Shown here in pieces: positions 342 through 53,393 of a stretch of DNA of 64,000 nucleotides. Position 1 is the stretch's first letter. Every line of letters begins with the position of its first letter. The notes under the pieces are model-generated. The model was not told where the DNA came from, did no database searches, and worked only from the letters and a program-made list of their open reading frames with translations. This DNA is from Chrysomallon squamiferum (taxonomy: Eukaryota; Animalia; Mollusca): assembly GCA_012295275.1 (NCBI GenBank), contig CM022671.1, positions 13,888,001-13,952,000 of the forward strand. The letters run 5' to 3'. Position numbers and translations under genes: made by a program.

Positions 342-3300
342 CTTTTTCTTCTCTTCTGTGTTAATCTCTATCTCCAGCAAGTCAATGTCTGGTGGATCTT
401 TCATATAAGTCTGAAAAAGGTGTATATATATATATTTTTTTTTTAGATTTAAATTGCCATTCAGTTTACTGTATTGTTTAACATATACGATTTAAAAAAA
501 ATAAATTAAAAGAATACGATGGTGTACATAAAAAATTCCACTAATACTGTTAAAGCTAAATTAATTTCAGTTATATAAATGTTATTTTGAACAGTCTCAG
601 TATACAAATATTCTTCACAAATTAAATAAAGTATACAAAAAAATTGTCATTAATTTGAAAAGTATTGATGATTGGTTAAGCTCTTTAGCTGAAAAGCTTT
701 TAAACATTAATTTATTCAATCCAGAAACAACAAGAAATAAAAAATACATTTAAATCTTAATAACTGTAAAATTATGAATAGAATACAGAGCAATAAATGA
801 GGAAATATCTTACCCTAGCCTTGAGATTAGGATGAAAAATGATGTAACCATTCAGATTAATGGCAAAGGAATATCCATTTGGTCCAAGCTGAATACAGAA
901 AATATTCTATTATCTCAACCATGTAAATTCTTTGGTTATATTTCATATTTGAAGATTGAATATGATGCACTGTTTCATTTGTGATGTTTGTTTCCTTTTT
1001 GCTTTCGGTTTAAATTTTTCTGATGTAATAATTTTGTATTTATAAACATAAATTAATTTTTTATGCCATACAAGTTAACTTATATTTAAAATAATGTAAT
1101 ACAATTATGATCTATCACTTATGTTTACTATGTTTCACTTATATTTACTATGTATGACAAATTTAGTTTTATGTTACCTCTTGTTTTGGAGTTTTTTCTC
1201 TCATAGAATCAGTTGTTACATCAATTCCCATAACTCCAAGAATTGTCTGGTTGGACTGATAAAAAACACTCTTATTAAACATTTTAATAGTAACTGTTCA
1301 TATTGATAAACACATCAAAAAACAAAAGCAGAATTATTATTATATCTTTTTATCACTGCCTGATTACTGCCGATTTTAAAACATCTAAAATGAGAAAATA
1401 TTGTAAATGTCTATATAGTGGAGGTAAGTACTGATGTTATCAAATTTAAAGTAATTCTTCCTTCTGTTTTTTTTCCCCCTTTACTTCCTCATTATATTAT
1501 ATAAAACTACACTGAAAGTGTGTATCTGTCTGTATGTGTACATGGATGTGTAAATTTGCATGTGTCTGAGTGTGCATGCATGTCTCTTCAAAGACATCTA
1601 GATTATGTAGTTGTAAAGTTTAGCTATTAAAAACTCACTGAACCAATGGTTCGATTGTAAACTGGCAAAGTCACTGATGTCATCATTCCCAGTCCCTGAA
1701 ACATGTCACATTTAGTTTTATTTATTAGAAAAAACCCACAGTGAATCACCTGACTAAATAAATAAAAATGTTTTCAATCTTGTCAATTTTGTAACAAATT
1801 AATATAGTGGTATCCAAAACATATATAAAATTTAGAAATTTCTGAAGATATTTAAAAAATAAAGATAAAATATTTATAACAAATAAATGACTCAAATGAA
1901 TTATCATAAAATTATGCATCTGGTCTACAAATGTTGATGTATATTGAATATGTTGATGTATGTTGAATATTCTTTATCATATTTTTTAAAGAACAAACAG
2001 TTTTTAAAAATGATTTTAGTTAGTTAATTTCCAGAAGTAGAATATTATTTGAATTCTGTATTTATACATATAAAACAATATTTGAATGTAAAATAAAAAT
2101 CAGATAATATTAAAAATGAAAAAACAAAGATTTTAATTGAATAAAATTATTAATTAAGTAAAATCATGTGCATATTAATTATTATTGAACTATAAAGCGT
2201 AATAATAATATGTTAAGCATTAAATCGCATGCAAAATAATGATATGATAAAAACAAATAAAGTATAAACATATTATTCAAAAGCAAGCTGCATGCAAGAC
2301 AAATAATTTAAAAAGCATGCCAATAGTCAAACACAATGTATTAACACATTCCAGTCTATCTTCAACAGTATTTGAATAGTATTTTTTAAATTTATAGATT
2401 TTAGCTAATCTGATGTATCTTTTATCCTTACAACATATTTCAACATTTCAATAAGTAAATATTTTATAAATTCATAATTTTAAACATATTAGAAATTTTG
2501 AATTCAGTGTTATATTTAATTATATTTCTACTTTGTTATTTTCATACAGAATTATCATGTTTGATGTAACACAAGGTTTACCTGCAAGAGCATCCATTTT
2601 ATTTTCTCTTTACCTATGTAAAAGTATGTCTTTTTATTATTACATATAGCTGAATATCATGCAAAATAGTAGTTTTCTATTTTAGTCAGTTATTGGGTGT
2701 GTGTACTCATATATTTATATGTAGTACATATTTAGTTTACAACTATTTGTGTGAAATATACTACACAGTTTACTAACATCAAACACAGATAGGTGAATAG
2801 TGTGTGTGAAATAAAATTAGAACACTTTTGTTTATTTTTCTAAAATAACTACAATATATATTCAAAGTGTAATTCGTTTGTACCTTATTTCACCAATGAA
2901 ATAAATTTCAAATATCTAGATGTAGATATTATTTATGTAAAAAAGTATAATAGTTGATACTGCTAAGAAAAACAAGAATATTTTTTTAATCTTTAGCTAA
3001 TTTGAAAATAAAAACAAAACAAATTAATAATAATTTTAACAAGATTATAAGAATGTGAAAAATGTATCAAGTTTTTAAAGAGAAAATGTTCATGCTTAAA
3101 AAGAATAATAACAATAATAAAATACAGGAGAGATAGGAAAAGAAATAAACTCATTTTTTTTTAAATAATTTATTCTGATATATTACAATATTTCTATAGT
3201 AATACTTTTTATATTTTACTCATTTTATTTATTTTATTTGCTTAATATATTATTATTATTATTATTATTATTATTTTTAATGGAGATTTTAAATGGTGCT

Positions 3301-3572
3301 CAATGGACAGACAGACGATATGGACTATGACTTACAACACTATGAATGACACAACACTGAGTAAGAGGTCAAAGGTCAAAATACCAGATGATCATAATAC
3401 AAGTCACCCCAGTGGTAATGCTTCATGTCTAGCAGAACTTGAGGTCGACTTAGTACTGGTATGTAATCCTTCAAACAGAAGTTTCAAATAAACATACAGG
3501 AAATTTTATATAAAATTTATACAAGTTTCAACATAAGATGTTTGGCTGTTTGGGAAAACAATATATTTTTAA

Positions 3573-3608
<36 letters not shown>

Positions 3609-6600
3609 CAAAATAGAGAAATAAATGGAGTATTTTGATATACATAATATGTCTGTTAAAGGAAAACTTAGAGCCAAGTTACATAAATTTGAATTTTTAC
3701 TTGAACAAAGTCTAAGATTATGAGAATAATTACGAAGTATAACAATCTGATATATTTAGAAAAAAATGAAAATCAGTTTACAAAACAAAATGCATTTTAA
3801 GAAAAATGTGACCAAAAGCCATGAAAACAGTTTTCTTTTTCTTTTCAAATCTACACAATAAAGGTTCAAGTTTAAAAAGTAGTTGTCACAAGATGCTGGT
3901 AACTTATGTAACAAACACAAAAATGACAAAAACAAAATCAGGTCTCTCTACCTTATAACTAATCAACATTATCATCATCAATCATCATAGTCATTGTCAT
4001 AATCATTTTCCTGATAACCATATTCATCAACAACTGAAAAAATCTATTATTTCTTAATATATTATCTCCAAATATTTCTAAATCACTTCTCTAAAGCTGA
4101 TCAAATCTTTTCTTCCAATGTTTTTTTGTTGTTGTTGATATATAAACTAAATTGGATAATAATAATATTACAGACTGAAGTAATGGTAAAAACTCTTGTT
4201 GACAGTAAATTATATTGCATAATGTTTGTTTGTCAGTAAATACTAGAAAAGAAACCACTGTTAACTGAACTGAATTAACTTTATTAATTGAAAGAAAAAG
4301 ATTCTGTTAAGGAGATTAGTAGTTGATAATGATTAATTGCTGAACAGAATTTATAGTATAAAATTATAAAAAAAGATTTTAGTTCATGTTAAATATTTAT
4401 GTTTAGTAAATATTATTTTTCCATGCCCGAATAATAATGTAGTAACTGTATTTATCATGATGGCCAACTCTGATGAGAAATAAACATCATGTCATTTTAG
4501 CGGAAATGGCACATTTCCCATCTTATACAGAACTCTGTCAATATCAGAGGTCAGGTCCACTACAAGTGTACTTGAACAGTTTTATGACAAACGTCCAACT
4601 ACAGAGTGAGCAATGAAAAAAAAAAAGAAAAAAGGAAAATAATAATAATAATCCAGTAGGTAAATAAATAACTTAATAAGTAAATAAATACAAGTAAATA
4701 AGCATTCATTAAACATCTTGGACACTAACTTAAAAATGTTCTTTATTAATCTTCAGTAAAACCAAATAAATAAAAATCAGCAATGCATTGGATTATATGA
4801 TTAATAAAATTCTAGTCTTTAAATCAAATTTGGAAAAGTGGTAGAATTGCCTTGCGAATCATAACACACACTATTTCTTCACAACCACTTCTAAACTACA
4901 CAGTAGTATTGATACAACAGTACATTATTTGTAAATGAAAAAACTGTTGATAATTAAGGTCTGAATTTATAATCTATAATATTTCCTCAAATATTAAGAC
5001 AAAAAGTTGGCCATCATGAAATACATTTGAAACATTATGCTGTAAGATGCAGAAATAAGCAATAATTTTAAAAAATGAGGTTGAGAAAATGTTGTTTTGT
5101 TGGGTTTCTTCCATCTTTTTTACATGACATGCTTAAACTGGGATTCAGTTTCAACTCATTCTTACTCGGGGGTCAACAGTTACTGTCCAGTGTAGTTCAG
5201 TGCCATTAAAATATTCCTTAGGCCCATAAAATGCCTTAATGTATTCCTGTTAGAAAAAGTTAAAGCTGTCATATATAAATCCAAAACAAAATATTACGGT
5301 TATTGCAATAAGGACCAACAGATGCAAATGTATAAATGTAAAATAGTTGAAAGTGGCTTTTTTCTAATAAGATGATTTGATAAAGATATACTATTAATAA
5401 CATTTGCTTTATATCTGCATCTCTTTTCAATCAGAAGTCACTTACAATCTAATGATTTATGTGACATTTATTTCTATAAATCAGTATACTAAGAAAAAAG
5501 ATTTAAAAAAAGAAGAAAAAACAAATAAACAAATTGTAATGTTTTCTGTGTGGTTAAAAACTTTGATAAATTATTTACAAATGATATTTATGAAGGTACA
5601 CATGAAGTAAACAAAATGTACAGAAAATAAAAACCTAAAGCCTCCAACTGAAAAAAGAGAAAGAAGATTCTTTAAAATGTATACAAAGTTAAAAAATTAA
5701 TAATCATTTAATAAAGCTGATTCCAGCATCACCTGAATACAGATACTTATACCATGAAATGATAAAAACGAACTGAAGTTGTTAAATAAACACTGAATCC
5801 CACACCAGCTGTGTAACAATTACCGGTTTGTTTTCAGGGTTATTGTGTGGTGATATGCGACTACCAGACCACTGTGTGTGTTCAACATTTCTTATAGCAA
5901 GTGGTCGAGCCAACACATCATAGTATATCTAGTCAAAGAGTTCCAAATAACAGTAAGTACAAAATATCATATGTGCAAAGAATTAATATTTGCTTAATCT
6001 CATCATACTTTATTTTTAAAAGTGATCATATATGTATTTTATTACAACTTCCTATAATAAAAAAGTCAGACAAATATATATTTCTTTAGAGATGCACATA
6101 CAAATATATTTATATGATTATAATGGTTGGTAGGTAACTGGTAAAAGTATCTTTGTGTAAGAGAAAATAAAAAAATAAAATATCAAACAATTTACCTGAA
6201 CTTTTGCTCTAATAGCACCCATTGCAGGAATCTGTGAGAAAAACCCTGCAGCACAAAAACAAGTAATGAAATATACTTTTACTTCTGTTATTAACACATA
6301 TATAAAATACAGCCGACTTAATTTATACTCTGTTATGATCATTATGGAGATTAGTTGTTTTCAGTTAAAAGGTGCAGTGATGGTATTTCAAATATATTTC
6401 AAGAGTAATTTACTGATCAACAACTGATCTTACAGTGATGACTGCAGCCTTCTGTATGTCTCCCATCTCATTAACCCAATAATGTCATAAACACAAAATA
6501 CAATATCATTTTTACTTTTTTTTTTTTTTTAAATTTAATCAATAGTGATTTTTGATTACCTCTGTTTGCACATGCCATCCATCTGATAGCTGTTGTTGGA

Positions 6601-34119: not shown

Positions 34120-34727
34120 ATTTTATTATAAATATGTCGCCGTTCTGAACCACCTTTATATTTCTACCTACATATGGTATCTGATTTGTTATGTGTTACT
34201 GGTTTGTTTACCAACAATGATAAAAAAAAAATCAATAAAAAAAAAAGCCAAAAAAAAAGCAATAAATTATTAACTTTAAATATCTTAATAATAATAAATA
34301 AGCTTTCTTGTCTTGCAGGAATATCTGACAGTGACGTCATCTACCCTGTTCAAAGCAACCCGGCATCAGATATATTTTCGAGAGTTCGTCATTGTTGTGC
34401 CTAAACACTGGAAAACAAAGAAGTATTACAAACCGGCGGCTGATGCAGAAATCACGCATGCTCAGATTGTGGTGGACAAAGAAAACCCTGCTTACGGGGA
34501 TGCTCCTTACGTGAAGCAGTACGCTGAGTGTGGGCAACCCGGGTTATACATGCACCTCACTGTTCCCTACCTTATAGATGACAGAGTTACTTTTCGGTGG
34601 GGACTTCCAGGTGAGAAAAATGTAACTTGGCCATATCTGAGTCACCGTCGAATATAATTTATTGCATATACATGCCTTTAACTTGATATTTTATTTGACC
34701 TACTGTATGTAGAGCCGCGGGCACGCG

Positions 34728-34770
<43 letters not shown>

Positions 34771-34808
34771 CATACATACATACATATATACATACATCAT
34801 ATACCCAT

Positions 34809-34842
<34 letters not shown>

Positions 34843-37800
34843 TTTTATTCGTATATTTATTTTATAACATTCCAAATCAGACCAAGAATTATATGAAGCT
34901 AAAATGTGTGTTTGTGTGTGTGTGTACGTGTGTGTGTGTTCAGATTTATATCTGTTCCACAACACAAAAGTAATTTAGTCAAACGGTGATAGACTTATTC
35001 CTCGGCATTGATGAATGAGTGAATAGCCAAACCATCACGCCTGATATGTTGTCGTTGACGCCCACATCGTAGTCTTTTCGTTGTCCATGACTGAATGATT
35101 TGTCATCATTCTCAACTGTCAGAAGAAAGAAAAAAGTAAGAAACGTTTCATTGTTTGCCTGTACTTGACACACTTCGTCTTATAGCTCGTATATTTAGTT
35201 TATTCTAAAAACATATGTTACTTGAAGACTAGGAACAAGATAGTTTGAATGATACTTCGTGAAGAAGTAAAAACACAAATTAGACGACATACATACATGT
35301 AAGCATGCATATCTATATATATACATACTTACATATACACCCAAACCCACTTACTTACATATACACACGCATGAATATACATACAATCAGACCATGTCAT
35401 ATTTAAAAATAGACATCTCCACATCTAGTCAGGTGTAACATGTATCTGCAGTTTAATTGTTTTATTATAATTTTCACGATATAACATATAACCCATCGAA
35501 ACGTATTGCTTGAATTAATATTGCTGTTTCAAATAAATGATTTATTTATTGAGAAACTTTCTGTTCAACGAAGACAGCTGATGTATGCTATATTAACTCC
35601 AACATTTTCAACTGGTCGGAGTTTAAAACAATGAAGAATAAAATCTGATTTTAAAATACATGTAACTCTTTCCATCTAGAGCAGCATTGTTGCTTTATCA
35701 AAACTGTAACACATGCTGTCGCACCTACGGAAGTATACATATGAAGCATACGCTATTGCTACCTGATAACACTAACCCGTGTGTGATTCTTCTGTTATTG
35801 TAACAAGCATTATAACACATCATATCAAAAAACAACAATAACAAACACATATGTTCATATGTCTACTATTTTTTTCTGCCTTTCTTCAAGTTACAAACTA
35901 TATAACTAATCATCTAAAATAATGATTTTAATGCATAAATATCATTTATTAAGTTAGATAATTTCAGATTTACGCCATTTAATAGTTCTTATTTATTTAT
36001 TTATTTATTTATTAATCGTATTTTCATATTTTTCAGAGAAGACGTTGGTTCATGAGTGGGCACATCTCAGATGGGGACTGTTTGATGAATACCCTATAGA
36101 TGGACAGGACAGAGCCTTCTACAGACACAATGGAAAGTGGGAACCTGTCAGGTGATAGCTTTTGTTAATCTCTCTCTCTCTCTCTCTCTCTCTGAATATA
36201 TGTGTGTTTTATTGTATTTAGATGTCTTTAAGAGTGTCTGATAGACTATTCTAAAATATTTATGTATAACTGTGTCTCCTCTATGATGACAAACTAGACA
36301 AAGATGAAAAAAGAAAAGAAAATCAAAACAGTAACCACAAAAATCTAAAGCATGTTTTTAAAAAAGATCTGCAGTAGGTCTGCATGATGGATTGGTTGGT
36401 TCAGGTATTAAACGTGTATTGCTTCTTTCTTTGGATAATTATAATAATAATAATAATGAAAATTAAGCTGATCGAGGCTAGAGCTACGCTAAGGGGCTCG
36501 ACACTATCTTATTGCAGCCGGCTTCTTATTCGCCTAAAATATGATAAATGTACTGAGAAAATCTCAGGCTGAATATATAATGGACAAATGTTTCCTAGAA
36601 TGAAATACTCTGTGCAACATCTCTAAGAACAGTAAAGGAGAAATACTCTTTACTCTTGTGTAAGGTTTTCATGCTCACTTAAAACCGTCATATCACTTTT
36701 CATCAAAGTTATTGGATACAAACTGCAGAACGGCTATTGAAAGCCACATGATAGTAAATTGGTCCAGCACTATATCCCGTTTTATTTGCTAACATTTGAA
36801 TCTATCTTGATCACAAACAGCTGTAAAGAAGTATTATAATACGCATCGCTCACTTTATACAGTTCGGACAGGCGGATGTCACAGATGAAAAAAGCTTGTC
36901 AGTTACAAAAGGTTTTGTCACACAGTCTCGGTGTCACGTTGGTTATTTGTAAAACAATGCTAACATGTCTGGGGCAAACTGACAGAAATGATAAATGAAA
37001 CTTACATCAGTGTTGTAAATTTGCATACATATAGTTCAGATACCGTCAGATCGATAGTTGAATTAAACATTAAATTGAACTATAAACAGACGTAACTCCA
37101 TTGCCAACACATAACCTGGACAAAACCCACTAGAAAAATACCACTGGGACATAACCCTACATGGACATAATTCGACTTGAAAAAAAACCCACCGAACATA
37201 ACCCCATAGGAAAAAAAAAACCCCAAACAAACCAACAACAACAACAACCCCCCCAAAAAACAACAACAAATAAACAAAAACAAAACAATTCATCTAGACA
37301 TAATCTCAGTGGGGAAAAAAACAAACCCGCTCAAGCATAATCCCACATAGAAAAAACAGCACACGGACATAAACCCACTCACATATAATTAATTATAACA
37401 CAGTCTAATCTACTTTTTATTCACAGAGGAAGTACAGAGTGGAATATTAGTTTTTTTAAATTATTAATGAGTATTTGTATTTGTGGGAGATGATTTATGT
37501 CTAATTAGTTAAAAAGACCAGCTGGAGCATTCCCGTTGGATATGAGTATTGTATGTAGCTTTTTTTCTTGATAATCTCCACAGATGTTTCAGTAGCTGTG
37601 GTTTTGCGGGAATAGTATTATTGGATTCCATAAGGGTTCCATTTGATATAGAATTTGTCTTATGCCCAATCCAAATTGGCTTTAAGAACTTTCAATTTCA
37701 TGGTTTCTTTGATCTCTTGATTTCTGGGATGATATTTTCATAGCTTCCTTAATCTTTTGATTTCTGTGTTTAGATGACACCACTTATCCTCTGCTACTGT

Positions 37801-39740
37801 CAGGAGTGATCTGTTGGGCACTTAAAATTACAGGATAATCCCACACAATTAAAGTAGTCAACAGAACAAACACAAAAAAAAAAAAAAAAGAACAAAAATG
37901 TAGATTCATTAATTGATCAATCAATAGCATCAAAGGTAAAGATTTCGTAAACTATATTTGTAAAGTATTATTTTGTTCTCTGAAAAATATCTCAAGATTA
38001 GGCTTTTTATTAAGAATTGTTATTAGTGAATAGTGTTTGGTCCGATAGTGTTTTTCCGAATGATGTTTTCGTCTGCATTCAATGTAAACACGACATGTCA
38101 TGGGACAAACAGAACCTCAGAAATAACCTCTGACCCTATGTGACCCTGGAAGCGTGATGTGACGATTCGTATTGTGTTCCTATAGATACTGTACATGATA
38201 CATTGGCATGGTTTGTTTTGGCAGATTACAAATAGCGGAGTTACACAGCACAGTCCGAATGTCACAGAACTGACAGTGGTAGTGATATCTATTTATGGTA
38301 AAACGATTTATATTGGGTAGGATATTATATTTCACGACAATGTTCTTAAAATAACTGTTCGTCAGTAATTATGACAACAAAATATTGTATTTTTTTAAAT
38401 AGGCGTTCCCTTTTTTAATCCGTGACCAAAATGTTTCATAGTTGTTTATTAATATACCTATAAAACAATCTTTATCAGTTGCAGTCGTAAAAAATACGAA
38501 AATTCTGAAAGTCTGTTAATCCACAGATTTTTATAAAGGTACCCTAAAATTAGTTTGGAAATATTCAGTTAGGACAACATTTCATTGCTTACTGGGTTCT
38601 GATATACAGCACTGACAGCTTACCACTCATCTGAATTGTCATGATAAAAATAAATATAGTGGTAGTAGTAGTAACAACAACAACAAAAGGAAAATAAACA
38701 TATAAAATTCAACAAAACAACACAAAAGAAAAAAATCTTGAAGAATGCGGAACACAATTACATTGTTTTCTTCACACAATAATAAACAAAGTGACTTTAG
38801 ATAGAGTAAATTTGCTTTTTGGTCATATTCAAACGAAACTGTGTTTTGTAGGTGTACGGCAGAAGTGGAGGGAGTTCTCAGAAGCGAGAGGAAGAAAGAA
38901 GATTGTCCTTTCAATATGTACACCGGTGAACCAGGCAACGGTTGTAAATTCTATCCAAGGATGAAAGACAACCAGGCAGTGGCCTCTATTATGTTTATGC
39001 AATATCTCGAGAGCGTAAGTGCTTCACATTGATATATATCATGAAGAAAAACTTTAATACAATATATGTGTCGCCCATTGCTGTCATCTTAGTAATGCAA
39101 AGGAGAGAATATGATGTGATATGAAATATTCCGAGAGTAATAGTTGTCACTTACAGTTGGCGTTAAATGATAGTTATAAAGTGAATTAATATGATAGAAA
39201 TGTATAGGATATTTGATACGATATAATAAATAACTACAACAATAATCTAAATAAATATTGAAATAAAATTTTGTATTTTCAGATACTGTTCAGAATCCAC
39301 ATATTATTGCACAAAAGCTATGTTTTACTGTGTTGTATATAATCATGGATGTGTTTAAATAACAATCAACACCACTACCACCGCAATAACAACCACTACT
39401 AAAACTATGATCACTACTATGACTACCATATATAACTCTTTTGACCAGGCAGTCATCAGTGTCATAAATCTCATCGTTAAAGTCTGTTGTTCTTTATAGC
39501 AAATAAGTATCTGTACATTACATCATGCTGCAAATCTTCATTTACATGTAGATTGTAGAGTTCTGCGACGACCCCTATTCGTCAACAGCAACATACCGCC
39601 ACAACCACCTCGCACCTAACAGACAAAATAGACTGTGTTCTTACAGATCCGCATGGGAAGTGATGAGAAAACACCCGGACTTTCAACACAGTAAATTTTT
39701 ATTTTTTATTGGAACATTTGTCAGGATAATTTGAATAGTT

Positions 39741-39837
<97 letters not shown>

Positions 39838-42800
39838 GTATATATGCTGTTGCTGTAATTATGTTTCAAAAGTCGAAATACTAATTATATAAAAAATCTC
39901 AAATTTTTAAATATCTGCTACGTTGTCGTAACAAATACAATCGAAATGAAGATTGAAAAAAGAAAGATATTAGACATTAAAGGAACAAAAACAAATTTAA
40001 AAAGCAAAGCCCTACAGAATTCATTTTTGCACGAGAAATTTCAGTTATGAACAAAACGTGTCCATGAATTTGTGTTCAGATGTTTTTACAGTAGTCACAA
40101 GATTACCCATTTGTACGTGCTACAAAATTATTTGAAATATTTAACATGAAACGTCGTTTGAACTACTAAGCAAATTTTCATTTCGTCAGACGATCCACCA
40201 CTACCGCCTAATATAGACACCAATCCAGTGTTCCGGTTCGTGCAAGAACAACCACGAAGACGTGTTCTTGTTCTCGACAATTCTGGTAGTATGACTGTGA
40301 GTATCATATCATTCTGATGTCACAATTGCTAGCAGTTTCAGTAATTTAACAAAAAGTATTTATGATACTCTATACTGTTTTACGTACTATATTCTATATT
40401 TTTAATGATAACATAATACATACACAATTATTATTTATTTTATTTTTCATTATTTATTTATTTGTTTGCAGGGTAGTTCATTAAAAATACTGAAGCAGGC
40501 AGCTACAAACTATATTCAGAATACTGTTGAAATTGGTAGTTGGCTCGGAATAGTCGCCTTCAACACTGACGCCGTCGTCCTTGCCCCACTGACTAAGATC
40601 AAGACAAAGGCGGATAAGAAAGCACTGGCCGCCAAAATGCCTTTACTTGCTGAGGGCAAAACAAGTATTGGTGCGGGATTACAGAAAGGTCTGAATGTAA
40701 GTGGGAGGGGCTTCGATTTTCTCTTCAACACGTTTTATCGAATTTTGTATACACTGAGCCAGTTTGGTACACTGGATGAATCTATATTACGTAACCAACT
40801 GAGCTAATGTGGATAATCTATGAGCACAACATTTAATTAAGTCAACTTACTTAAACTAAGAACCACATTTTTTCTTCTAAATTTGTATAAATTATGTATA
40901 AATATTGGAACAATTTGTATAAATTATAAATCCTAACAGAAACACAATCATATGGGAATATTACAAGGACTATATAATATATTAATAATCTTTGTTCTAC
41001 TTCTACTTCTTCTTCTTCTTCTTCTTATTACTCTTATCATCATCATCATCATCATTATTATCGTGGTTGACATCGTGGCTGTTGTTATAATTGTTATCAG
41101 GTTCTGCTCAGTTCTAAAGGTGGAGGAGTAGGGGGGACTCTCATTCTGATCACTGACGGGAAGGAAAACAAGTCGCCGTGGATTAAGGATATTCGTAACG
41201 AGATCTTGAAACGAGGAATCTTGGTCCACGCAGTGGCGTACAGCCAAGAAGCCGAGGCGGCCATCTCACTGCTCGCAGCTGACACTCAAGGCAAAACTTA
41301 CTTCGCTAACGATCAGACAAACTCAACTTCACTCTCTGATGGTTTGGTTGCGACCATTTCTGATCACGCATCGGTGGATTCAATGGATACCCCGGTTTCA
41401 GTAAGTTTTTTTTGTTTTTTTTTGTTCGATGTGATTTATACATAAGTACATATCATGACATAAATATAACGTTATATATACGTGTTTGATATTGGGTTCA
41501 AATTATGCGACTGCAATAGATAATTCTATTATAGACAGTTTGAATTCTCGCAGTGTCAGTCGTAATCATAATATATTTGGCCTAACTCAATTTATTGCCT
41601 AATCCACTTGTGTACTCATACCCTCCAAAATTGACATTTTTAATTTAAAATTCTGCCTGATCCCTAGTTTTGCTGCATTTACTTTGTTAATCTGTTCCAT
41701 ATTTTATCTGAATTCATCAGGTTTCCAGTGACTCAGTCTTAGTAACATTCATGCGTCCTGCGACTGGTTCTTTTTACATCGATTCCACAATAGGTCGGGA
41801 AACCACTGTGGCCTTCACTTATACTGAGCCTATCTTCGTTACGTTGCATACCTCAGATTTCTCGTTGTCTAACAAAACTCATCCAGCCATATACAGCGAC
41901 GACAGACTATCATATATCTTGACCATAACAATACCAGAAATAGCCCAGGTAAGCCCAGTTTAATTTATACATTTAGGATTGTTTGTATGTTTTCTTAACC
42001 TCATTGATATGGTTACAGTTAATAATGTTACCTTAGATTTTGATCCGATAAGTAAGATTCTTTAATATCCTCTATCCAAGTGACATAACAAAAACAGTGC
42101 TATATTATCGGTACATACCACGCAGAATAATAAACAGAAGGTTATAAATGTGTTATAATGATTTTTAATGATTATAATTATATTGATGTATATGGAATTA
42201 AAAACGATGGCACTACGTCTAAGTAGACTGTCCAGTCTACAGTTAGCTCTGTTTTAAAATTAACACTTTCTTTAATTAACCAAAACATACTGCTATTTTG
42301 AAATTGAATAACTTATTCAATTATAGAAAGGTCAGTGGATTTATCGCATAACAACAAATGCCATGGACTCCAGCGTCACTGTGCACGTACAATCAAAACA
42401 GACCGACGCCGACACCAACGCCATCCTGTTCAACTCTTGGATTTCTAAAGATCTAATCAAGTACGAGGCCAAAGGAAAATTTGAAATCTTCGCCGAGGTG
42501 ACTAGAGGCCGAGCGCCTGTCCTAGACGCAGAGGTCATCTCTATGCTGGAAAGACCAGGATCGGTGCCAAAGAAAATATACATGAAAGATGACGGATCAG
42601 GTATAAGATCGTACTCAAGAAATCTTGTCATGAAATGTTACGTTTCTCATTTAACAAATACACAGAAACGTGTAAAAACCGATCCCTCAATAAATTGCAA
42701 TTTCCCCAATACGAACTATTTCCATTATCCAGTGATTTATCAGGAAAAGGATTTTATTTATTTATTTATTTTTTACATGGTCGCTTTTGAGAAGTTTCGT

Positions 42801-44757
42801 TTTACACGTTAAAGTAGGCTTATCCTATATTAGGATAAAAGCTATAGCTTGTACCTTGATAGTAGGAGCTGTTTGCTCAGAATAAAGCTTATAAATAAAC
42901 TTTATTTAACAAAATTATATTTAAGTTATGTTATTTTACGTTTTCTTATTTTAGGTTCTGATATTATCAAAGGAGACGGTATTTATTCCTCATATATAAT
43001 GGCGCCCGACCTAAGTCAAAATGGCCGCTATAATGTCAAGGTTATGGTTAAGGGAAAGCATGACGTCAGTAAGGTGGTCACAGGACAGAGATTCAGTGGA
43101 GCTTTAGAAACTGGAGAATCGGGTAAATAAACAGAATATTGTATTAACGGCGCACCAAGGATTTCATCATCATAATAACATTATATAGATGGCACAGAAA
43201 ATGAAATACATTAAACATAAAATATAGATCAACAAGGAATAAGCCAGAATGTTTTAAATCCACCTATGATATTATAAAATAGGTTGTTTTGTTAATAAAC
43301 GTTAAATTGACAGCTTTTGTCAGCTTGAAAACATAAATACAGTATTACAAAGGTAAGCATATGTATTATTAATGGTACCTCTTATTATCTTAAACATTAA
43401 ATTTATTTTCTTTTTCAGACTGTCAAAATTGTTTTAATTATAATTATTTTATTTTATTTATTTGAATAATAAAATTTTGTTATAATTCAGGAATACAGAA
43501 GATTTTTATTACTTCGTATTTGTTGTTAAATAAATAAATAATTTCCTCTTTTCAATACAGTTTTTATTGATCAACTCAGAAATCCCGAAACAGAAGCCAT
43601 TGAAGACTTCCAGCGAGTGACATCTGCAGGTGACTTCCGGGTATACGACTTTCCAGAAAGCACTGAAAACATAACAGACGAAATTCCGCCAGCCAGAATC
43701 AATGACCTTGAACTTGTATCACTAGACCAAGACACTGGCATTGTGATAATCGAGTGGACATCTGTTGGGGATGATATGGATCGGGGTAAAGGTCAGTAAC
43801 ACCCAACCCCCCAAAACCCCTCTCCAAATAAAAAAACAACAAAAAAAAGAAGCAAAAAAAAACAAAAAAAACAACAACAAAAAACCCCACAACAAAACAA
43901 CAAAAGCAAAAAAAACAAAACAATAACAACAAAAAAACACACGACAATAACGACATTGTAACAAGATACGGAAACTTTATCTCGGATTTCTATTATATCA
44001 TATCGTGTATTCTTCTTTTCCTTTGAAGTTCCATAATTATTGTTTTCGCCACTGCCACTACGTCTAGCACCATAAGTATTAAAACTACAAGTACTGACTC
44101 CACCGCTGCCACATCACCAACACTACCACTATCACCTGCTGATATTATTGTTGTTCTTCAATCGTTCATACATTTTTGATATTTTGTATTGTACATATAT
44201 GTATTTACTTTTCAGCTGATATGTATTACCTTCACTTGTCAGACAGTTTTCACGAACTACTTGAAAAACGAGATTCCAATGACAGCCTTACAAGTGTTAA
44301 ACTAGCGAACGGTTCATTTCTTCAACCAAAGCCATCTGGAGAGAGGGAACGCCTGGAATTCAACCTCACGTTTCTACTTCACGATAAAACCCTCTACCTG
44401 TCAGTGCGTACTGCCGACGCCACTGGAAATATTGCAGAACCATCTAACATCGTTACACTGTCGTACGTCGACGACGTTGCAGTTCCCGTGGAGAAGGCGA
44501 CTCATGCTAGCAGTATGTATCGCAGTTTTGTTCTACCTACTGTGATTTCTTTCGTTCTTCTACTCGTTCTCATCACGATACTGTGTTTGCTGATAGCTCA
44601 TCGAAGGAATGAGATGCAGTGGAAAGACAAACTGGTTCCAAAAGACGAGCATCCTAAGAACATCGCCGGGAACAAAAACATGAACTACAGAGTCGAAGGG
44701 CAGTACGTACTGCGATGGCACGAGGAACCAAATTCGTGGTACTCGACGCCATTATAG
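30399..44757 (+). CDS. CLCA: Calcium-activated chloride channel regulator (CLCA family): zinc metalloprotease/VWA protein, membrane-anchored, about 976 aa
   Basis: 13 phase-consistent exons: 30399-30545, 34319-34610, 36037-36151 ([14 protein letters not shown] zinc motif), 38852-39014 ([11 protein letters not shown]), 39552-39690 ([24 protein letters not shown]), 40190-40296 ([15 protein letters not shown]), 40472-40696 (TSIGAGL), 41101-41400 (ILITDGKEN), 41721-41948 (FYIDSTIG), 42327-42600, 42955-43122 (DGIYS; SGAL resembling the CLCA self-cleavage region), 43561-43791 ([20 protein letters not shown]), 44216-44757 (SNIV, TM helix, TAG). Total 2931 nt. Confidence 0.95.
31968..32020 (+). mobile_element. 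Possible tRNA-derived SINE head (degenerate)
   Basis: A-box-like TAGCTGAATGG followed by B-box-like GTTCAAATACC. No intact cloverleaf. Confidence 0.3.
37100..37400. repeat. Degenerate short-unit array (GGACATAA(A)CCC-like), probably a DNA-transposon/MITE subterminal repeat
   Basis: Recurring GGACAAAACCCAC, GGACATAACCC, GAACATAACCCC and GGACATAAACCCAC units in CLCA intron 3. Confidence 0.5.
39743..39833. repeat. (CT)n microsatellite, about 90 bp
   Basis: Visible directly. Many other (TAA)n, (CA)n, (GATA)n and (TACA)n tracts occur, for example near 8200, 14160, 22535, 24325, 30660, 34080 and 45980. Confidence 0.95.
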
Positions 44758-45582
44758 TCGTGGAACCATGGTAACGTTCGATATAACCTAATTAGATACC
44801 CTTTTAACTGGAAGATGACGGTGTTACATCACAAGGACGAAATGAAATCACCATAGGGATGAACAACTAACTATGTTGTCATATCTGTTAAGGGTAATCT
44901 CTGATTTTTGTTATATAATACGTTTTCATTTTAAATCTTTTAATAGGATTCAAGTGTTTTACGAGGTGCGTTTCTTGTTTTATTTAAGGTCTGTTTAGAA
45001 TTCATCTGGCGGTACCGCATAAAATAAAATTCTGTATATCCCAAGCTTTTCTTTTATTATTCTTGGCCATATATCATCGCTCAATATAAAGTATGGCAAT
45101 AAAATATTACTACTACAAATATCATTTTGTACCTTTCACCACTGAAAGTTGCTATTTTATTTTTCTGAAGAAACTAGAGTGCAAATAGTTCAGTCCATAT
45201 AGAAATGGTCGCATTCACATATTTTAAAACTGTACTTTCTATTGTTGTTATACTTAATTATTAATTAGACTGAACAATAAAACCATATAGAATATAATTC
45301 GGATGTTTATAGAACATATTTAGAATGTTTTCTTGTCTCTCGAAAGATACACTTTTAAAGAAAAATTATCACCTGACTGATGGTGACGAGATATTCACCT
45401 CATATAGAAATAGTAACAAGCAGTTTTTAGCTAATTCCTTCCAAAGAAGAATTTTAAAATATTTGTGACCTCTTAAAATTATTTTATATCTATATATTTT
45501 ATATAAAATAATAAATAGCTAATAAATGGAAATTTTGTTATTATATGTTGTAATTCGTTCGTTCTCAATGCTATAGATGTTG

Positions 45583-45735
45583 TAGCCCGTGAAGATTTCA
45601 AGTGTGGCCCGCCAAACACGTTACATTGTGTAAGTGGGGATACCTTTTAATTAAATGTGTAGCAGAATGAAAATGGTGCGGCTCCTTTATCTACAGATAT
45701 TGCGGCCCACAAGTACTTTCAGTTTGACGCCTGAT
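45583..45735. mobile_element. Possible hAT/Charlie-like MITE remnant
   Basis: Repeated T(G/C)GGCCC/GCGGCCC motifs ending in AGTTTGACGCCTG, typical of Charlie-type termini. Confidence 0.35.
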
Positions 45736-46002
45736 GTAGCTGACGTGATTTCTTTAGAGGAATGAAAATACAATTCCTCGAAAAAAAATAAAAATAGCAA
45801 TGAAAAACTGCTTTCTAACAAAAGTTTCAGCACGCAAAAATTTGTTTTTCACTCTCCTGGGACTTACAGGATGTCAACTATTGCTTTATATAATACAGTT
45901 ATATGTAGATAAAAATGAACACACAAATAGACAAATAAATAAATCAACATATGAAAGAAAGAAAGAATGAATAAATAACTGCTACTACTACTACTACTAC
46001 TA

Positions 46003-46051
<49 letters not shown>

Positions 46052-46138
46052 TTTATTATTGAACACAACAGTTAATACAAATGTTAAATATTATGACCAA
46101 CAGGTGAATGTTTAAACATATATAGACTTACCTGTTTA

Positions 46139-46176
<38 letters not shown>

Positions 46177-46276
46177 TTCCACGGATATTTATATAAATTA
46201 TTTATTAAAATAAATATAAATTCTATCGTTGGCCAACTGAATGAAAACATTGTATTACTTACTATTCATTCAATAC

Positions 46277-46857
46277 GAACACACGCGCACAGGCCGGTAT
46301 AGCAACCCCAAAACACACACCCTCAGTCCCAAATCACTCCAGCCCGAACACACGCCCAGGCCAGCCTAACTCAATTACACATCTCTGAGACACTCCCTAG
46401 CACAGTCCAAATTAAAACACGTCAGCCGAAAACCAGCCCCGGCCAGCCTAAATCACTCCCTCGGTCAGTCCATTTTAAACCCCTTTAGCCGCGCATACGC
46501 CCGGACCAGTCTATGTCACTACCCTCATCATCAAATCACTCCAACGGTCAATCCAAATTAACTGACTTCAGCCGAACACACGCCCAGGCCAGCCCTAGAT
46601 CACTCCCACATCTCCAAAACACTCCCATGGACAGACCAAATTAACTGACTTCAGCCGAACACCCGCACCGGTCAGTCCACTTTACACCCCTTCAGCCGAA
46701 AACACGCCCGGACGAGTCTATTTCACTACCCTCATCACCAAAAAAGTCAATCGATCAGTCCAATTTAAACCCCTTCAGCAGAACGACGCCTGGACCAGTC
46801 TATTTCACTACCCTCATCACCAAATTACTCCCTCGATCAGTCCAAATTAACTGTCTT
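46277..46857. repeat. C-rich degenerate composite minisatellite
   Basis: About 8 diverged units built from CAGCCGAACACACGCCC(A/G)G(G/A)CCAG, TCACTACCCTCATCACCAAA and CAGTCCAAATTAAC modules. Confidence 0.85.
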
Positions 46858-47354
46858 CTCTGTGTATGTGTGTGTGTGTGTGCGTGCGCGCGCGTGCATC
46901 ATTAATATTATTATCTCATGTAATGTCGATTTGCGCTATAATAGGTGTTTTCAGTTATTGTCTTCCAATTAATTTGTTTTATTAATTAGTTTACACTAAC
47001 TTTAAATGTATTCTTGTTCCATTCATAGAGGGACGAACAAGTGTAACTAGGATAGTATCATGCATTTGTTGGCTGTCGATTAATTGCATGTTTTAGACAG
47101 TTTGTTGTTCATATATTACAATACTGAAGTTTTATTTTATGATAACGGATCATATATAATACTTGTAAATGTAATAGTACAGGAGTACTTTTAGTGCAGA
47201 CAGCACCCATTAAACTGGCATGATTATTGCTACCAAAACAAACACAATTTAACTCTATTTTATTATTTATTTATTTATTTACTTTGTTGATGTTGTTGTT
47301 CTTGTAAACCGAGTAATTTTCAGCTCCATGGATTTGCTCATAAAAGGGGTGCCT

Positions 47355-47752
47355 ATGTATTACTTTCACTTGTCAAACAATTACCAGTGACAGCCTTTCA
47401 CATATTAAACTAGAGGACGGTTCATTTCTTCAACCAAAGCCATCTGCAGAGAGGGAACGCCTGGGTTCAACCTCACGTCTTCGCTTCACGATAAAACAAT
47501 CTACCTGTCCGAGCCAACTACCGAGAATAAAAATATGAACAACAGAATCAAAGGGCAGTATGTATTGCGATGGTTCGAGGAACCAAACACGTGACATCAG
47601 GCGCCATTACTTTCGATACAACATCTTTAGAGAACCTTTTAGTTGTGAGATGACAATGTACAAGATAAAATGACTAAAGAGTTGAATAATTATGACGTCA
47701 TATCTGATAAGGGCAATCTCTGGTTTTATTATATAATACATAATCATTTCAA
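47355..47752 (+). pseudogene. Decayed partial duplicate of the CLCA terminal exon and proximal 3'UTR
   Basis: Collinear similarity to 44221-44415 (e.g. CGGTTCATTTCTTCAACCAAAGCCATCTG, GAGAGGGAACGCCTGG, CTTCACGATAAAAC), then to about 44668-44930. It has a frameshift and internal deletions. Confidence 0.9.
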
Positions 47753-48399: not shown

Positions 48400-49375
48400 T
48401 AAGAAATTGAAATATGATTAGAGAAAGGGTCAACTAAACAGATTACTTCTGTCTTGGCATGGTTAGATGAACAAGCCATTGACATATATGATAGATTTTC
48501 TTTTGGACAAAATGAAGATGCAAAGAAAATTGTGCTAAGAAAGTTTGAGCAGTTTTGCATTGGCAAAGCCAATGAAAAATATGAAATATTTCTCTTCAAC
48601 AAAAGGAAGCAAGAAGAGGTTGAGACAATCCATGCATACGTAACTTCACTGTGAAAACTCATCGAAGCACATAATTGTAAAACATATGAGGACAATATGT
48701 TCAGAGACAGAACAGTACTTTGTGTGGGAGATGTCTCAGTTTGTCCGAAATTCTCGGAGGATAGAAAACTGACACTGTCATTGAGCATAAAATGAGGAGA
48801 TGGTTGGCATGCCAGGTGGGCAGAAAACTAGATCTCACCAAGATGTTAATGGGTGACTCACGATTTAGTAGAAAATGGATTTCTAGGTGCAATTTCCAAC
48901 ATGGCGGATAATTAATGTTTTCTTGGGAGAACCAAAGTTTGTTTAAAGAGGGGCAAAGGTGCAGACATAACTGTCATCCCAGAGATCAAAGCTACAGGAA
49001 GAAAATGCTGTAACATATGACATCTCTGCCACAAGACAGATACCCGCAGCCTCTGTAGATTAAAATTAAAAAAACCTGAATTGCCTGCAGACTAAGACTG
49101 ATTCATTCAGTGACCACACCAACAGACTGGTAGTGGTGCCTAAAGAAAAGAAACAGTCCACTTATTTATGCAACAGTGTCAAGCAAGAACACAATCCTCT
49201 TCCTTCCATGGACAATCTGCTGGCAGAGTTTGCAGGAGCAAGAGTATTTACTAAACTGGGCTGTGATAGTGGTTTCCACCAAATGACATTAGATGAAGAG
49301 CTGACAACAATTATTACTCCATTTGGGCAATTTTGTTACAAAAGGCAGCCTTTTTGGAATTTCTTCAGGTGCTGA
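48400..49375 (+). mobile_element. Degenerate Ty3/gypsy LTR retrotransposon internal fragment (gag, protease and RT pieces)
   Basis: Gag-like AIDIYDRF..KFEQFC..NEKYEIFLFNKRKQEEVETIHAYVTSL, protease-like GADITVIP near 48958, and RT-like HNPLPSMDNLLAEFAGARVFTKLGCDSGFHQMTL..TTIITPFGQFCYKRQPF. Stops, frameshifts and deletions are present. Confidence 0.85.
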
Positions 49376-50838: not shown

Positions 50839-53345
50839 TTATGTTGATACAACTGATGATACTGATTCAACAGATGGTGCAGGTATAACTGGAGATACAA
50901 TTAGTGGTTTGGTTTCTTCACTTGGTAAAACAGCAGGTTTGAAATCATCAGTGTAATGATACTGTGAACTTAGGTCAAGGTTGACATAGGTGTTGACAAT
51001 GTCACATCGTTGTGGTCCAGTTTTCTGCTTCACATCCTTGATAACAATTTCCATTTCATTAGAAAGTTCTGAAAATGTTGGTCGGTCGGAACCTGAACCC
51101 CTCCAACACTGATGCATGACTGCATAGCTGTAAGTAACAGAAAATTAATGTACTAAAACAGAAAAACAACTAATTCATATTTGGCAAATTGATATATATG
51201 TAAAAACCGCAAGAACACAGGTCTCATTTAGTCCTGTGTTTTCACTGACTGTCTATTGTTTACCAGTATCTATCTGCTATTGTTGTTATTATTATATGAC
51301 TTAAAATAATAATGTTAGAAACCCCTTTGCTGTTTGCTTTATTATGGTAGAAGTGTAACTTCAAATTACTGAACACAACAGGGTGATGGTAAATATATTT
51401 ACTATTGAAAAGTTGTCAAGGATAATCAGGACAGTAACTGAAATGATTTAGAAGTATACTATACTGACAGCTTATTTAATATATCTAAGTATACTAATAC
51501 ATAATCAATATTATATTTATAGTTATTTCAATGTATCTGAGTATACTAATATACTATCCATATATTATTTATAGTTATTTTAATACATTTGTACCTTACA
51601 AGTGCACCAACTTAGAATTTTCCAAGTTGTGAGCAGTTGCCTGGTTGTTTTTTGCTTTGAGTTTGGAACCAAAATCTGAGTTACAAGCAAGCTAGCTGCT
51701 GTAATGAACAACACAATATCTGCCCAGCATTTTGCCAAATTTCTTTTTTCTAACCATAAATCCTAAGAAAGTGAGTGCAAAGCAGAGTGCTGATAAGAAG
51801 AAGTGGATGATGTGCATTGAATTAAAGCTTGAATTCATAGAAAAACATGAGCAAGGTGTGCGTGTTTTCAACTTGGCTAGGCAGTACAATATGTACCATA
51901 CTGAAGCAGAAGGAGTCAAAAAAGGCTACAACTCCAGCCATGGGTATTAAAATAATTTGTCTGATCTCCAAGATAAATACACTTTACAAAACCAATTTAT
52001 TTCTTTACATTCTCTTTTATTTTTGTTTTTATACAATATTTGTCTTTCACAAATACATTTTTCTTATTTAAAAACACATTATCCAAAATTGGGGCGATTT
52101 TTGCAGGGCTGGAACATATTAATGGTATTTCAATTAATTTCAGTTGGATAATTTGATTTGATACACAAGAAAATTGAGTTATGAGCTCATTCACAGAAAG
52201 AATTAAACTTGTTAGTCAAGGTACCACTGTGTATCTAAGTATACTCATACACCATCCATACTTTATTTATAATTAATTTATATATCAGAGAATATTCACA
52301 GAGAATCTGAACTACATTTGTGGCTAAATGAACCTATCACTGTATACTCACAGAGCATCTGGACAATACTGTGGCTGAGGCATTCTGCGGCCTGCTTTCA
52401 GATAGCGAATCATGTCCCAGTTGTCAACATCTGGATAGGGATTTACTCCACGAGTCATCAACTCCCACAAAACAACTCCAAACGACCACTAAAATAGTCA
52501 TAAGATTGACTTTTGCACTTTTCATATTTTATATTATACATTAATGCATGATGAATGAAATTTATAAATCTTTATTTGATGTTAATGAGTTCACTGTCCT
52601 TTTGGTGTTGTAACTAAATTATTGTTTAATTTGTTGTGTATTAACAAACACATATCTACAACATCTGGCTATGATGTGTATATATATATAATATAATATT
52701 TATCATATCAGACCTGTAACTAAAATATTGTTTTATTTGTAATACGTTAATAAACTTTTATTTTCCCCTATCTGGTTTTGATATATGGGTATAATAATAA
52801 ACACATTTCTACAAAATCTGATTTTGATGTGTATGTAAAATAATAAAAGTATATTTACTTTTCAGACCTAGAATCCATTTAATTATTTAATTATTTAATC
52901 TGTAATATATTAATACATTTTTATTTACCACATCAGACTTTGATGTGTATGTCCCTTTCTCTAAACTTTCAAGTGCCATCCATTTCACGGGAAGTTTGGT
53001 TTTCTTGTTGTCTGAGCTGTAATATTCCTTCTCATAAATGTCTCGAGCTAGTCCAAAATCAGCTACTTTCACACAGAAATCATCATCCAGCCTGTGGAAA
53101 AACAATAATACAGTTTGTAATATACCAGAATTCAGAAATAAATATAAACATAGTTATAAATATATACATTATATAGTGTTACAACAAAGAAATTAATATG
53201 TCAACACCTTATAATGTTGTGTATAAATAAAGAATTATTACTGTTCATAATACACACTAACACAATTTGATTTAAAATATTTTAAGAAATTAATACAAAT
53301 TATATAAAAGCCAAATTTCAAATCATCGTAAAAATAAAAATATTC

Positions 53346-53393
<48 letters not shown>

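What the first reader, a model, noticed from the sequence alone, without database searches (positions are those of the whole stretch)
2500..5802. Competing docking/selector-type RNA pairings bracketing the exon 15 cluster
Seen: the element just downstream of the 15a donor (5782-5802; pre-mRNA UGGGAUUCAGUGUUUAUUUAA) is complementary to two separate sites. Site (i) is 5139-5149, 16 nt downstream of the 15b donor (ACUGAAUCCCA, a perfect 11-bp match). Site (ii) is 2500-2519, downstream of 15c (UUAAAUAUAACACUGAAUUC, about 19 bp with one bulge and one G-U). Both use the same AUUCAGU core, so they cannot form together. Pairing (ii) loops out 15b and 15c; pairing (i) loops out 15b. Established: competing docking-selector duplexes enforce mutually exclusive splicing in insect Dscam1, 14-3-3zeta and Mhc. 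Inference: this is part of the exon-choice mechanism here. Caveat: found by eye in AT-rich sequence, with no statistics.
Basis: partly seen in the sequence, partly recalled or inferred. Interest (0 to 1): 0.72.

Follow-up and report, generated by a model that had tools for sequence, protein, structure and literature searches.

The report
Snail calcium-channel exon-choice RNA switch
In a snail calcium-channel subunit gene, one short intron sequence is complementary to two rival sites, one of which covers a splice signal, and these predicted pairings likely help the cell choose among three alternative exons, a mechanism known from insects and humans but untested here.

Summary
The gene is a gastropod calcium-channel alpha2delta subunit; its exon 15 exists as three tandem copies, also found in bivalves and cephalopods. 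The element after 15a (D) is complementary to sites i (11 bp) and ii (19 bp) through one core. Two additions change the reading. First, pairing i continues for 16 more bp over the 15b 5' splice site, so 27 nt from the GU are covered (-28.3 kcal/mol; 0 of 289 shuffles; next of 36 donor tests -21.0). Second, site ii has another partner 25 nt after the 15c donor (12 bp), so ii, not D, resembles the downstream docking site (unbiased test: 4 of 115 shuffles). No selector for 15b was found. Against: competing helices alone are common (9 of 24 control windows), whole-cluster folding omits these helices, the two RNA runs assembled 15b, the exon predicted to be masked, and 10 of 38 gastropod RefSeq models carry two exons. 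No gastropod intron DNA was reachable, so conservation is untested. About 50% that the pairings act in exon choice. This scan earlier noted a similar system in an octopus P4HA gene.

The parts
6196..6245 (-). Exon 14 (constitutive, upstream of the cluster), ends in phase 0
   Evidence: AG/GT bounds and translation; matches orthologue proteins
5824..5928 (-). Alternative exon 15a, 105 nt, 35 aa
   Evidence: a-type segments in Haliotis, Patella, Littorina and others. No junction observed in this species.
5792..5802 (-). D1: 5' part of element D; pairs with site i (11 bp) or, as part of 5782-5800, with site ii
5778..5791 (-). 14-nt bulge of the D:15b-donor duplex; carries the bases that extend the D:ii helix (possible toehold, inferred)
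   Evidence: Structure; unpaired probability 0.31-0.64
5762..5777 (-). D2: pairs with 15b intron positions +1 to +16 (16 contiguous bp, 5 G-U); compatible with D:ii
   Evidence: (-13.5 kcal/mol alone), pairs listed
5166..5246 (-). Alternative exon 15b, 81 nt, 27 aa
   Evidence: Junction 15b to exon 16 in RNA contigs of runs X8 and X9; long acceptor covered in X8
5139..5165 (-). 15b 5' splice site (+1 to +16) and site i (5139-5149, +17 to +27): 27 contiguous nt predicted paired with D2 and D1
   Evidence: -28.3 kcal/mol; 0 of 289 shuffles
3385..3468 (-). Alternative exon 15c, 84 nt, 28 aa; keeps the residues aligned to human alpha2delta-1 Y450, D452, L454
   Evidence: conserved in DNA contigs of organism B
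3349..3360 (-). Dc: second partner of site ii, starting at +25 after the 15c donor; shares UCAGUGUU with D
   Evidence: 12 contiguous bp with 2504-2515, -15.4 kcal/mol; alignment of the three exon flanks
2500..2519 (-). Site ii: candidate downstream docking site, 865 nt after the 15c donor and 804 nt before the exon 16 acceptor
1638..1695 (-). Exon 16 (constitutive, downstream of the cluster), starts in phase 0

Best explanation
In the pre-mRNA of a gastropod alpha2delta calcium-channel gene, an intron element after exon 15a is complementary both to the 5' splice site region of exon 15b and to a site downstream of the whole cluster, and these predicted competing helices likely bias which exon-15 copy is spliced in. 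Shown: three tandem homologous exons; the complementarities D:15b donor (27 bp in two helices), D:ii (19 bp) and Dc:ii (12 bp); shared cores that exclude each other. Inferred mechanism: (A) D:ii would loop out 15b and 15c and bring the 15a donor near exon 16, giving 15a. (C) D would cover the 15b donor, leaving ii free for Dc, which would favour 15c, or 15a+15c when 15a is also recognised. (B) 15b would be used when D is kept off its donor, by faster U1 binding, by a protein, or by D pairing elsewhere (hairpin with the end of 15a, pairing with the body of 15b, or looping-out of 15a and D by the weaker U:M helix). The system would bias choice and suppress 15a+15b rather than enforce strict exclusivity.
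For: The 15b donor window has a partner of -28.3 kcal/mol; the other 35 of 36 donor-direction tests range from -11.0 to -21.0; 0 of 289 shuffles reach it, Gumbel p about 0.003. D:ii given D: 2 of 547 shuffles. Site ii pairs best with the 15a (-19.7) and 15c (-15.4) windows among 18 donor windows, next -8.0; 0 of 272 background windows reach -15.4. An unbiased scan of intron 15c-16 picks 2501-2520 as the best shared site; 4 of 115 shuffled introns and 0 of 455 (non-independent) constitutive triples match it. D and Dc share UCAGUGUU at +28 and +25, as expected from duplication of one arm (PMC6071210). D:i plus D2 has probability 0.93-0.98 in the 720-nt fragment that spans it. In the 3.7-kb cluster, states with D:i+D2 and with D:ii lie 1.7 and 3.9 kcal/mol above the minimum. 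Other known mechanisms do not apply: all three exons are multiples of 3, internal introns are 577 and 1697 nt, and all donors look U2-type (U12 consensus recalled). The three-exon cluster is conserved across molluscs at protein level.
Against: No conservation or covariation evidence: no gastropod intron DNA was obtained. The only assembled junction in both RNA runs is 15b to exon 16, the exon predicted to be masked (two samples of one study, contigs, so no levels). Correcting the donor test for 18-36 comparisons leaves p about 0.06-0.07. The 15a window is sticky: it pairs with the unrelated exon 3 donor window at -31.1 against -32.1 for 15b, and the control pair exon 12/15a scores -15.5 against -15.4 for 15a/15c; Dc:ii is matched by 32 of 3000 shuffles of its window. 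D:i probability falls to 0.23-0.56 in larger windows at 37 C and 0.16-0.24 at 15 C. The unconstrained fold of the cluster holds none of these helices, and forcing Dc:ii costs 13.7 kcal/mol. No selector for 15b (-6.4). RefSeq models of other gastropods include 15a+15b (2 of 38) and 15b+15c (2 of 38).
Confidence: 0.5

Rival explanations
1. The complementarities are chance matches in an AT-rich intron, and exon choice is set by splicing proteins and splice-site strength.
For: Helix hubs occur in 9 of 24 real control windows and in 130-175 of 380 shuffles by energy. The GU-rich 15a window also pairs strongly with unrelated windows. Introns of unrelated animals hold inverted repeats of -30 to -39 kcal/mol. 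The whole-cluster fold omits the helices. RNA contigs show 15b in use.
Against: The positions are specific: one duplex starts exactly at the 15b GU and is the outlier among 36 tests, and ii's two best partners both lie just after alternative donors; Dc was found after ii had been defined.
Confidence: 0.3
2. Only the 27-bp duplex over the 15b donor is functional: it is a silencer that stops 15b from joining 15a, and the matches to site ii are incidental.
For: It is the strongest and shortest-range pairing and dominates its own fragment. Three Haliotis RefSeq sets have 15a+15c models but no 15a+15b or 15b+15c.
Against: D:ii given D is rare in shuffles (2 of 547), and ii independently pairs after 15c.
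Confidence: 0.12
3. One reading: D is the docking element, i and ii are its selectors, and their competition enforces mutually exclusive choice among the three exons.
For: D's two best partners are i and ii, through one core.
Against: D:i removes only 15b and permits the in-frame 15a+15c product; neither pairing selects 15b; published docking sites lie upstream or downstream of the whole cluster (PMC6071210, passages), which fits ii and not D; 10 of 38 gastropod RefSeq models have two exons.
Confidence: 0.08

Closest known systems
Downstream docking site-selector clusters of insects: 14-3-3zeta exon 5 (IE1, IE2, IEa), Mhc, MRP1, Dscam1 exons 4 and 9 (as described in PMC6071210, PMC4691838, PMC4174434; Yang et al. 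2011 itself not seen)
   Same: Three tandem homologous exons; one site downstream of the cluster complementary to short elements just after alternative exons; the elements share a core and look duplicated.
   Different: The middle exon has no selector while the last exon, the default in the insect model, has one; the 15a selector also covers the 15b donor; conservation and mutagenesis are missing; the host is a mollusc.
Human ATE1 exons 7a/7b (R1 and R4 compete for R3; PMC7797038, passages)
   Same: One element competes between partners, and splice-site occlusion is the mechanism; loss of the element would be expected to raise double-exon products.
   Different: ATE1 hinders 3' splice sites of two exons; here a 5' splice site is covered, there are three exons, and the second partner is a distant intronic site. 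An equivalent helix over the 15a donor (-30.9) is predicted but rare in the ensemble.
Dscam1 exon 6 balancer pairings (Ubs6.1-Dbs6.40; PMC8791459, passages)
   Same: An extra pairing inside the cluster masks a splice site and competes with docking-selector pairing.
   Different: Balancers act with an upstream docking site in a 48-exon array and mask a 3' splice site.
Bidirectional pairing in Drosophila srp exon 4 and hymenopteran Dscam exon 4 (PMC4691838, passages)
   Same: A weaker upstream helix (6087-6105 with 5407-5425) would loop out 15a and could select 15b, giving two-way control.
   Different: That helix is not significant after allowing for how it was picked.

Membership tests
Downstream docking site-selector system (14-3-3zeta/Mhc type) | Tandem array of homologous alternative exons | tested here: met
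   Three exons of 35, 27 and 28 aa in the same phase, sharing Y, P, W; conserved in molluscs
Downstream docking site-selector system (14-3-3zeta/Mhc type) | Exactly one exon per transcript | tested here: inconclusive
   RNA contigs show 15b alone in 2 of 2 RNA runs; orthologue RefSeq models: 25 of 38 single, 10 double, 3 none
Downstream docking site-selector system (14-3-3zeta/Mhc type) | One site downstream of the cluster complementary to several selectors that follow alternative exons and compete for the same bases | tested here: met
   ii pairs with D (after 15a) and Dc (after 15c) on overlapping bases 2504-2511
Downstream docking site-selector system (14-3-3zeta/Mhc type) | A selector for every exon that is not the docking-proximal default | tested here: not met
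   15b donor window pairs with ii at only -6.4; best sites in the 15b-15c intron -10.5
Downstream docking site-selector system (14-3-3zeta/Mhc type) | Conservation and compensatory changes across species | not testable with these tools
   No gastropod intron DNA: organism B contigs aligned only at exon 15c and at repeats; metagenome loci were non-gastropod by protein likeness
Downstream docking site-selector system (14-3-3zeta/Mhc type) | Disruptive and compensatory mutations shift and restore exon choice | not testable with these tools
   Needs minigenes
ATE1-type competing splice-site occlusion | A shared element pairs with a region that overlaps a splice site of an alternative exon | tested here: met
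   D2 and D1 cover 15b intron +1 to +27
ATE1-type competing splice-site occlusion | The competing helix occludes the splice site of the other exon | tested here: inconclusive
   15a donor region with exon 15b: -30.9, 0 of 116 shuffles (best -30.6), but ensemble probability 0.000-0.018
ATE1-type competing splice-site occlusion | Blocking the shared element yields double-exon transcripts | not testable with these tools
   Needs antisense oligonucleotides or minigenes

The most novel reading that the evidence does not exclude
A three-state RNA switch conserved in gastropods: one bipartite element silences the 15b donor and, through a 14-nt bulge that acts as a toehold, is captured by a downstream docking site that it shares with a duplicated selector after 15c. 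The switch would choose among 15a, 15b, 15c and a regulated 15a+15c form, and so swap part of the amino-acid and gabapentinoid pocket of alpha2delta.
Probability: 0.15. Interest if true: 0.75.

Novelty: new variant of a known kind. Interest (0 to 1): 0.5.

Why it matters
Competing RNA structures that steer alternative exons are documented mainly in arthropods and in a few human genes; my searches of the held library listed no paper that, by title or abstract start, reports this alpha2delta cluster or such pairings in a mollusc (subscription journals are mostly not held). If real, this extends the mechanism to a third animal lineage with a hybrid layout: downstream docking plus direct masking of a 5' splice site. 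The exon matters: it aligns to human alpha2delta-1 residues 425-454, which include Y450, D452 and L454, listed among residues important for ligand binding in the dCache_1 pocket (PMC11308618, passage). 15c keeps all three, 15b keeps only the Asp, 15a keeps none, so exon choice would be predicted to alter the pocket. The three splice regions of mammalian alpha2delta-1 described in PMC9901441 (passage) are cassette or acceptor variants, not a replacement of this segment. The cluster is small (4.5 kb), so the model is directly testable.

Tried and rejected
No whole genome is held for this window. Rfam: 0 matches in the window. Conservation attempts that led nowhere: DNA contigs of organism B (runs X10, X11) laid at 80% likeness covered exon 15c and repeat-like pieces, with no listed piece at sites i or ii; lack of cover is not evidence of absence. 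The metagenome scan gave 12 loci, none gastropod-like by tblastn to reference proteins; only L006 holds sequence after a 15a-type exon, and no element matched with up to one mismatch per six letters. Viral contigs gave none and prokaryote genomes two irrelevant Sorangium loci. Searching for gene calls that read from exon 15a into D found nothing or four unrelated proteins. Reads were laid only on 1400-5480, so junctions at exon 14 and 15a and variation in D were not observed. Rejected as selector for 15b: the AT-rich arm 4961-4997 against 2471-2507, absent from the top partners of extended ii. Rejected as strong evidence: the 5005-5038/4434-4469 inverted repeat (-32.6; 0 of 380 shuffles), since unrelated introns hold equally strong repeats; the U:M:N hub (2 of 1041 random elements match it, but it was picked from about 200 positions). 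Local folds of 5100-5850 (z -0.05) and around the 15a donor, ii and the 15c donor (z -0.09 to 1.73) are no more stable than shuffles; only the small hairpin at site i is (z -3.14). The shuffle test (test A) used a coarser step than the observed value and was repeated fairly. Steric hindrance, nonsense-mediated decay and U2/U12 incompatibility were considered and do not fit the exon and intron lengths or donor sequences.
Full report
Gene and cluster. The region lies in a minus-strand gene whose exons translate to a voltage-gated calcium channel alpha2delta subunit. Exon 12 is 85% identical to a Gigantopelta aegis protein and 73-81% to Haliotis and other gastropod proteins, so the source is a gastropod; no genome is held. 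Between exon 14 (6196-6245) and exon 16 (1638-1695) lie three phase-0 exons: 15a (5824-5928, 35 aa), 15b (5166-5246, 27 aa) and 15c (3385-3468, 28 aa). They align with each other. Equivalent a, b and c segments occur in gastropods, bivalves and octopus; scallops and Mytilus show a further short variant.

Transcript evidence. RNA contigs of runs X8 and X9 (two samples, one study) both join 15b to exon 16 across a GT-AG intron. In X8 the contig runs three letters past the long 15b acceptor, which fits exon 14 and not 15a upstream (inference from the exon ends). One X9 contig of depth 2.5 covers most of 15c and 17 nt of the following intron. Contigs show presence only, and reads were laid on 1400-5480, so 15a junctions were not seen. 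Among 38 RefSeq isoform models of 7 gastropod sets (three Haliotis, Physella, Pomacea, Littorina, Biomphalaria), 25 carry one exon (a 9, b 7, c 9), 10 carry two (a+c 6, a+b 2, b+c 2) and 3 none. Left out of this count: single-model RefSeq entries and non-RefSeq gene models. Exclusivity therefore looks leaky, or the models include rare forms.

The observation. D (5782-5802) pairs with i as a perfect 11-bp helix and with ii as 19 bp with one bulge and one G-U; these are D's two best partners in the cluster (-20.6, -19.4; next -12.4). Given D, a partner as good as ii appeared in 2 of 547 block-shuffled regions. A perfect helix joining two alternative-donor windows appeared in 5 of 2000 shuffles. 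Mere competition is weak evidence: hubs appeared in 98 of 2000 shuffles, 130-175 of 380 by an energy criterion, and 9 of 24 real control windows.

First addition: pairing i covers the 15b donor. Folding 5100-5850 and duplex scans show a second helix, D2 (5762-5777), with 15b intron positions +1 to +16, stacked on the 11-bp helix at +17 to +27, with a 14-nt bulge on the D side. The duplex scores -28.3 kcal/mol; the other 35 of 36 tests (18 donors, 1.5 kb up or down) range from -11.0 to -21.0. None of 289 shuffles reached it (Gumbel p about 0.003); allowing for 18-36 tests leaves about 0.06-0.07. In the 720-nt fragment that spans it the helices have probability 0.93-0.98; in three larger windows 0.22-0.56 at 37 C and 0.16-0.25 at 15 C, the main rival being a hairpin of D with the end of exon 15a. 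The bulge carries the bases that extend D:ii, so ii could invade from it (inference). D2 is compatible with D:ii. A caution: the 15a window also pairs with the unrelated exon 3 donor window at -31.1 against -32.1.

Second addition: ii has two partners. Scanning with ii, the best partners in 2560-6195 are D (-20.0) and Dc (3349-3360, 12 contiguous bp, -15.4), next -10.5. Among 18 donor windows ii prefers 15a and 15c, next -8.0; 0 of 272 background windows and 32 of 3000 shuffles of the 15c window reach -15.4. D and Dc share UCAGUGUU at +28 and +25 from their donors. An unbiased test (best site in intron 15c-16 pairing with two of the three donor windows) returns 2501-2520; 4 of 115 shuffled introns and 0 of 455 overlapping triples of constitutive donors match it, but one control pair (exon 12/15a, -15.5) edges it among 153 pairs. 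No selector for 15b was found (-6.4).

Other helices. The 15a donor region can pair along exon 15b (-30.9; 0 of 116 shuffles, best -30.6) but this state is rare in the ensemble (0.000-0.018). An element at 5404-5425 pairs with 6087-6105 (looping out 15a and D) or 5043-5063 (looping out 15b) at about -22 each; 2 of 1041 random elements do as well, which is not significant given how it was picked. The strongest helix of the cluster, 5005-5038 with 4434-4469 (-32.6), lies inside the 15b-15c intron and has no other copy in the window. In the minimum-energy fold of 2460-6200 only this last helix appears; forcing D:i+D2 costs 1.7, D:ii 3.9, U:M 9.7 and Dc:ii 13.7 kcal/mol. Folding of several kilobases at equilibrium is a poor guide (own knowledge), but it gives no support.

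Mechanism. I commit to a biasing switch (confidence 0.5). D:ii would loop out 15b and 15c and select 15a. D on the 15b donor, with ii free for Dc, would select 15c or 15a+15c. 15b would need D held off its donor. The complementarities are shown; every splicing effect is inferred. Steric hindrance, decay of double-exon messages and spliceosome incompatibility, the alternatives listed in PMC6071210, do not fit introns of 577 and 1697 nt, exons in multiples of three and GT donors unlike the U12 consensus (consensus recalled). The main fact against is that 15b is the form assembled in both RNA runs.

Conservation. Not testable. Organism B contigs showed exon 15c with 20 differences over 104 letters and no listed piece at i or ii. 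Twelve metagenome loci resembled annelid or bivalve proteins and held no match to the elements. Protein searches for read-through of 15a into D found nothing relevant.

Comparison with what is known. It works like the downstream docking systems of insects and like ATE1 splice-site occlusion, but it is not filed as a member of the former, because the selector for 15b was tested and not found. Papers seen: PMC6071210 (first of five parts, and passages), PMC4691838 (passages), PMC8791459 (passages), PMC7797038 (passages), PMC4174434 (passages), PMC11308618 (passages), PMC9901441 (passages). Graveley 2005 and Yang et al. 2011 were not seen. Searches listed no paper that, by title or abstract start, covers this cluster or such pairings in molluscs; I read no supplements, and genome-wide lists of mutually exclusive exons in supplements could bear on novelty. 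The scan's own note e1-8669308 describes a similar arrangement in an octopus P4HA gene; I did not check it, and it gave me the lead to PMC4174434.

Protein consequence. Exon 15 aligns to residues 425-454 of human alpha2delta-1 (chain 8if3_A, via the Haliotis c form). Y450, D452 and L454 are listed among residues important for ligand binding (PMC11308618). 15c keeps all three, 15b only the Asp, 15a none. Changed binding is predicted, not shown.

Verdict. Real complementarities, modestly beyond chance, in a real and old alternative-exon cluster; richer than first read; function and conservation untested. New variant of a known kind; interest 0.5.

Noticed in passing
window 5005-5038 and 4434-4469: 36-nt imperfect inverted repeat (15 bp perfect, -32.6 kcal/mol) inside the 15b-15c intron; no other copy in the window; would shorten that intron by about 600 nt, or may be a transposon remnant.
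   Followed up: partly
window 3248-3280 and 3568-3600: Opposed (AAT)n microsatellites flank exon 15c and could form a 33-bp AU stem around it; 12 such tracts occur in the window, so possibly chance.
   Followed up: partly
window 6087-6105, 5404-5425, 5043-5063: Second hub: the middle element pairs upstream (looping out 15a) or downstream (looping out 15b), about -22 kcal/mol each; not significant after selection.
   Followed up: partly
window 5166-5216: A second in-frame AG inside 15b could give a shorter 17-aa exon; the RNA contigs use or run past the long acceptor.
   Followed up: partly
window 3368-3459 (run X9, record 29): One low-depth RNA contig covers most of 15c and 17 nt of intron, with 161 unlike letters upstream; unexplained.
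   Followed up: no
window 4544-4587: Several contigs of organism B match this intron piece with diverging flanks, suggesting a repeat family.
   Followed up: no
L002 1008-1088 and 1575-1655; L010 1927-2007 and 3837-3920: Annelid-like alpha2delta loci also carry two tandem exon-15 copies, so the duplication may be wider than molluscs or repeated.
   Followed up: partly
orthologue proteins P0110, P0154 (Argopecten, Mytilus): A further short exon-15 variant (25 aa) occurs in these bivalves; several species also have models that skip exon 15 in frame.
   Followed up: no
window 34298-47670, + strand: CLCA-family gene (Pfam CLCA and VWA matches) with a repeated last-exon-like piece near 44143-44850 and 47344-47670.
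   Followed up: partly
window 50842-62604, - strand: Receptor tyrosine kinase gene (Pfam tyrosine kinase match); looks MET-like to me from recalled motifs.
   Followed up: partly
window 49070-49372, + strand: Open stretch that looks like a reverse-transcriptase fragment by eye; no Pfam match.
   Followed up: partly
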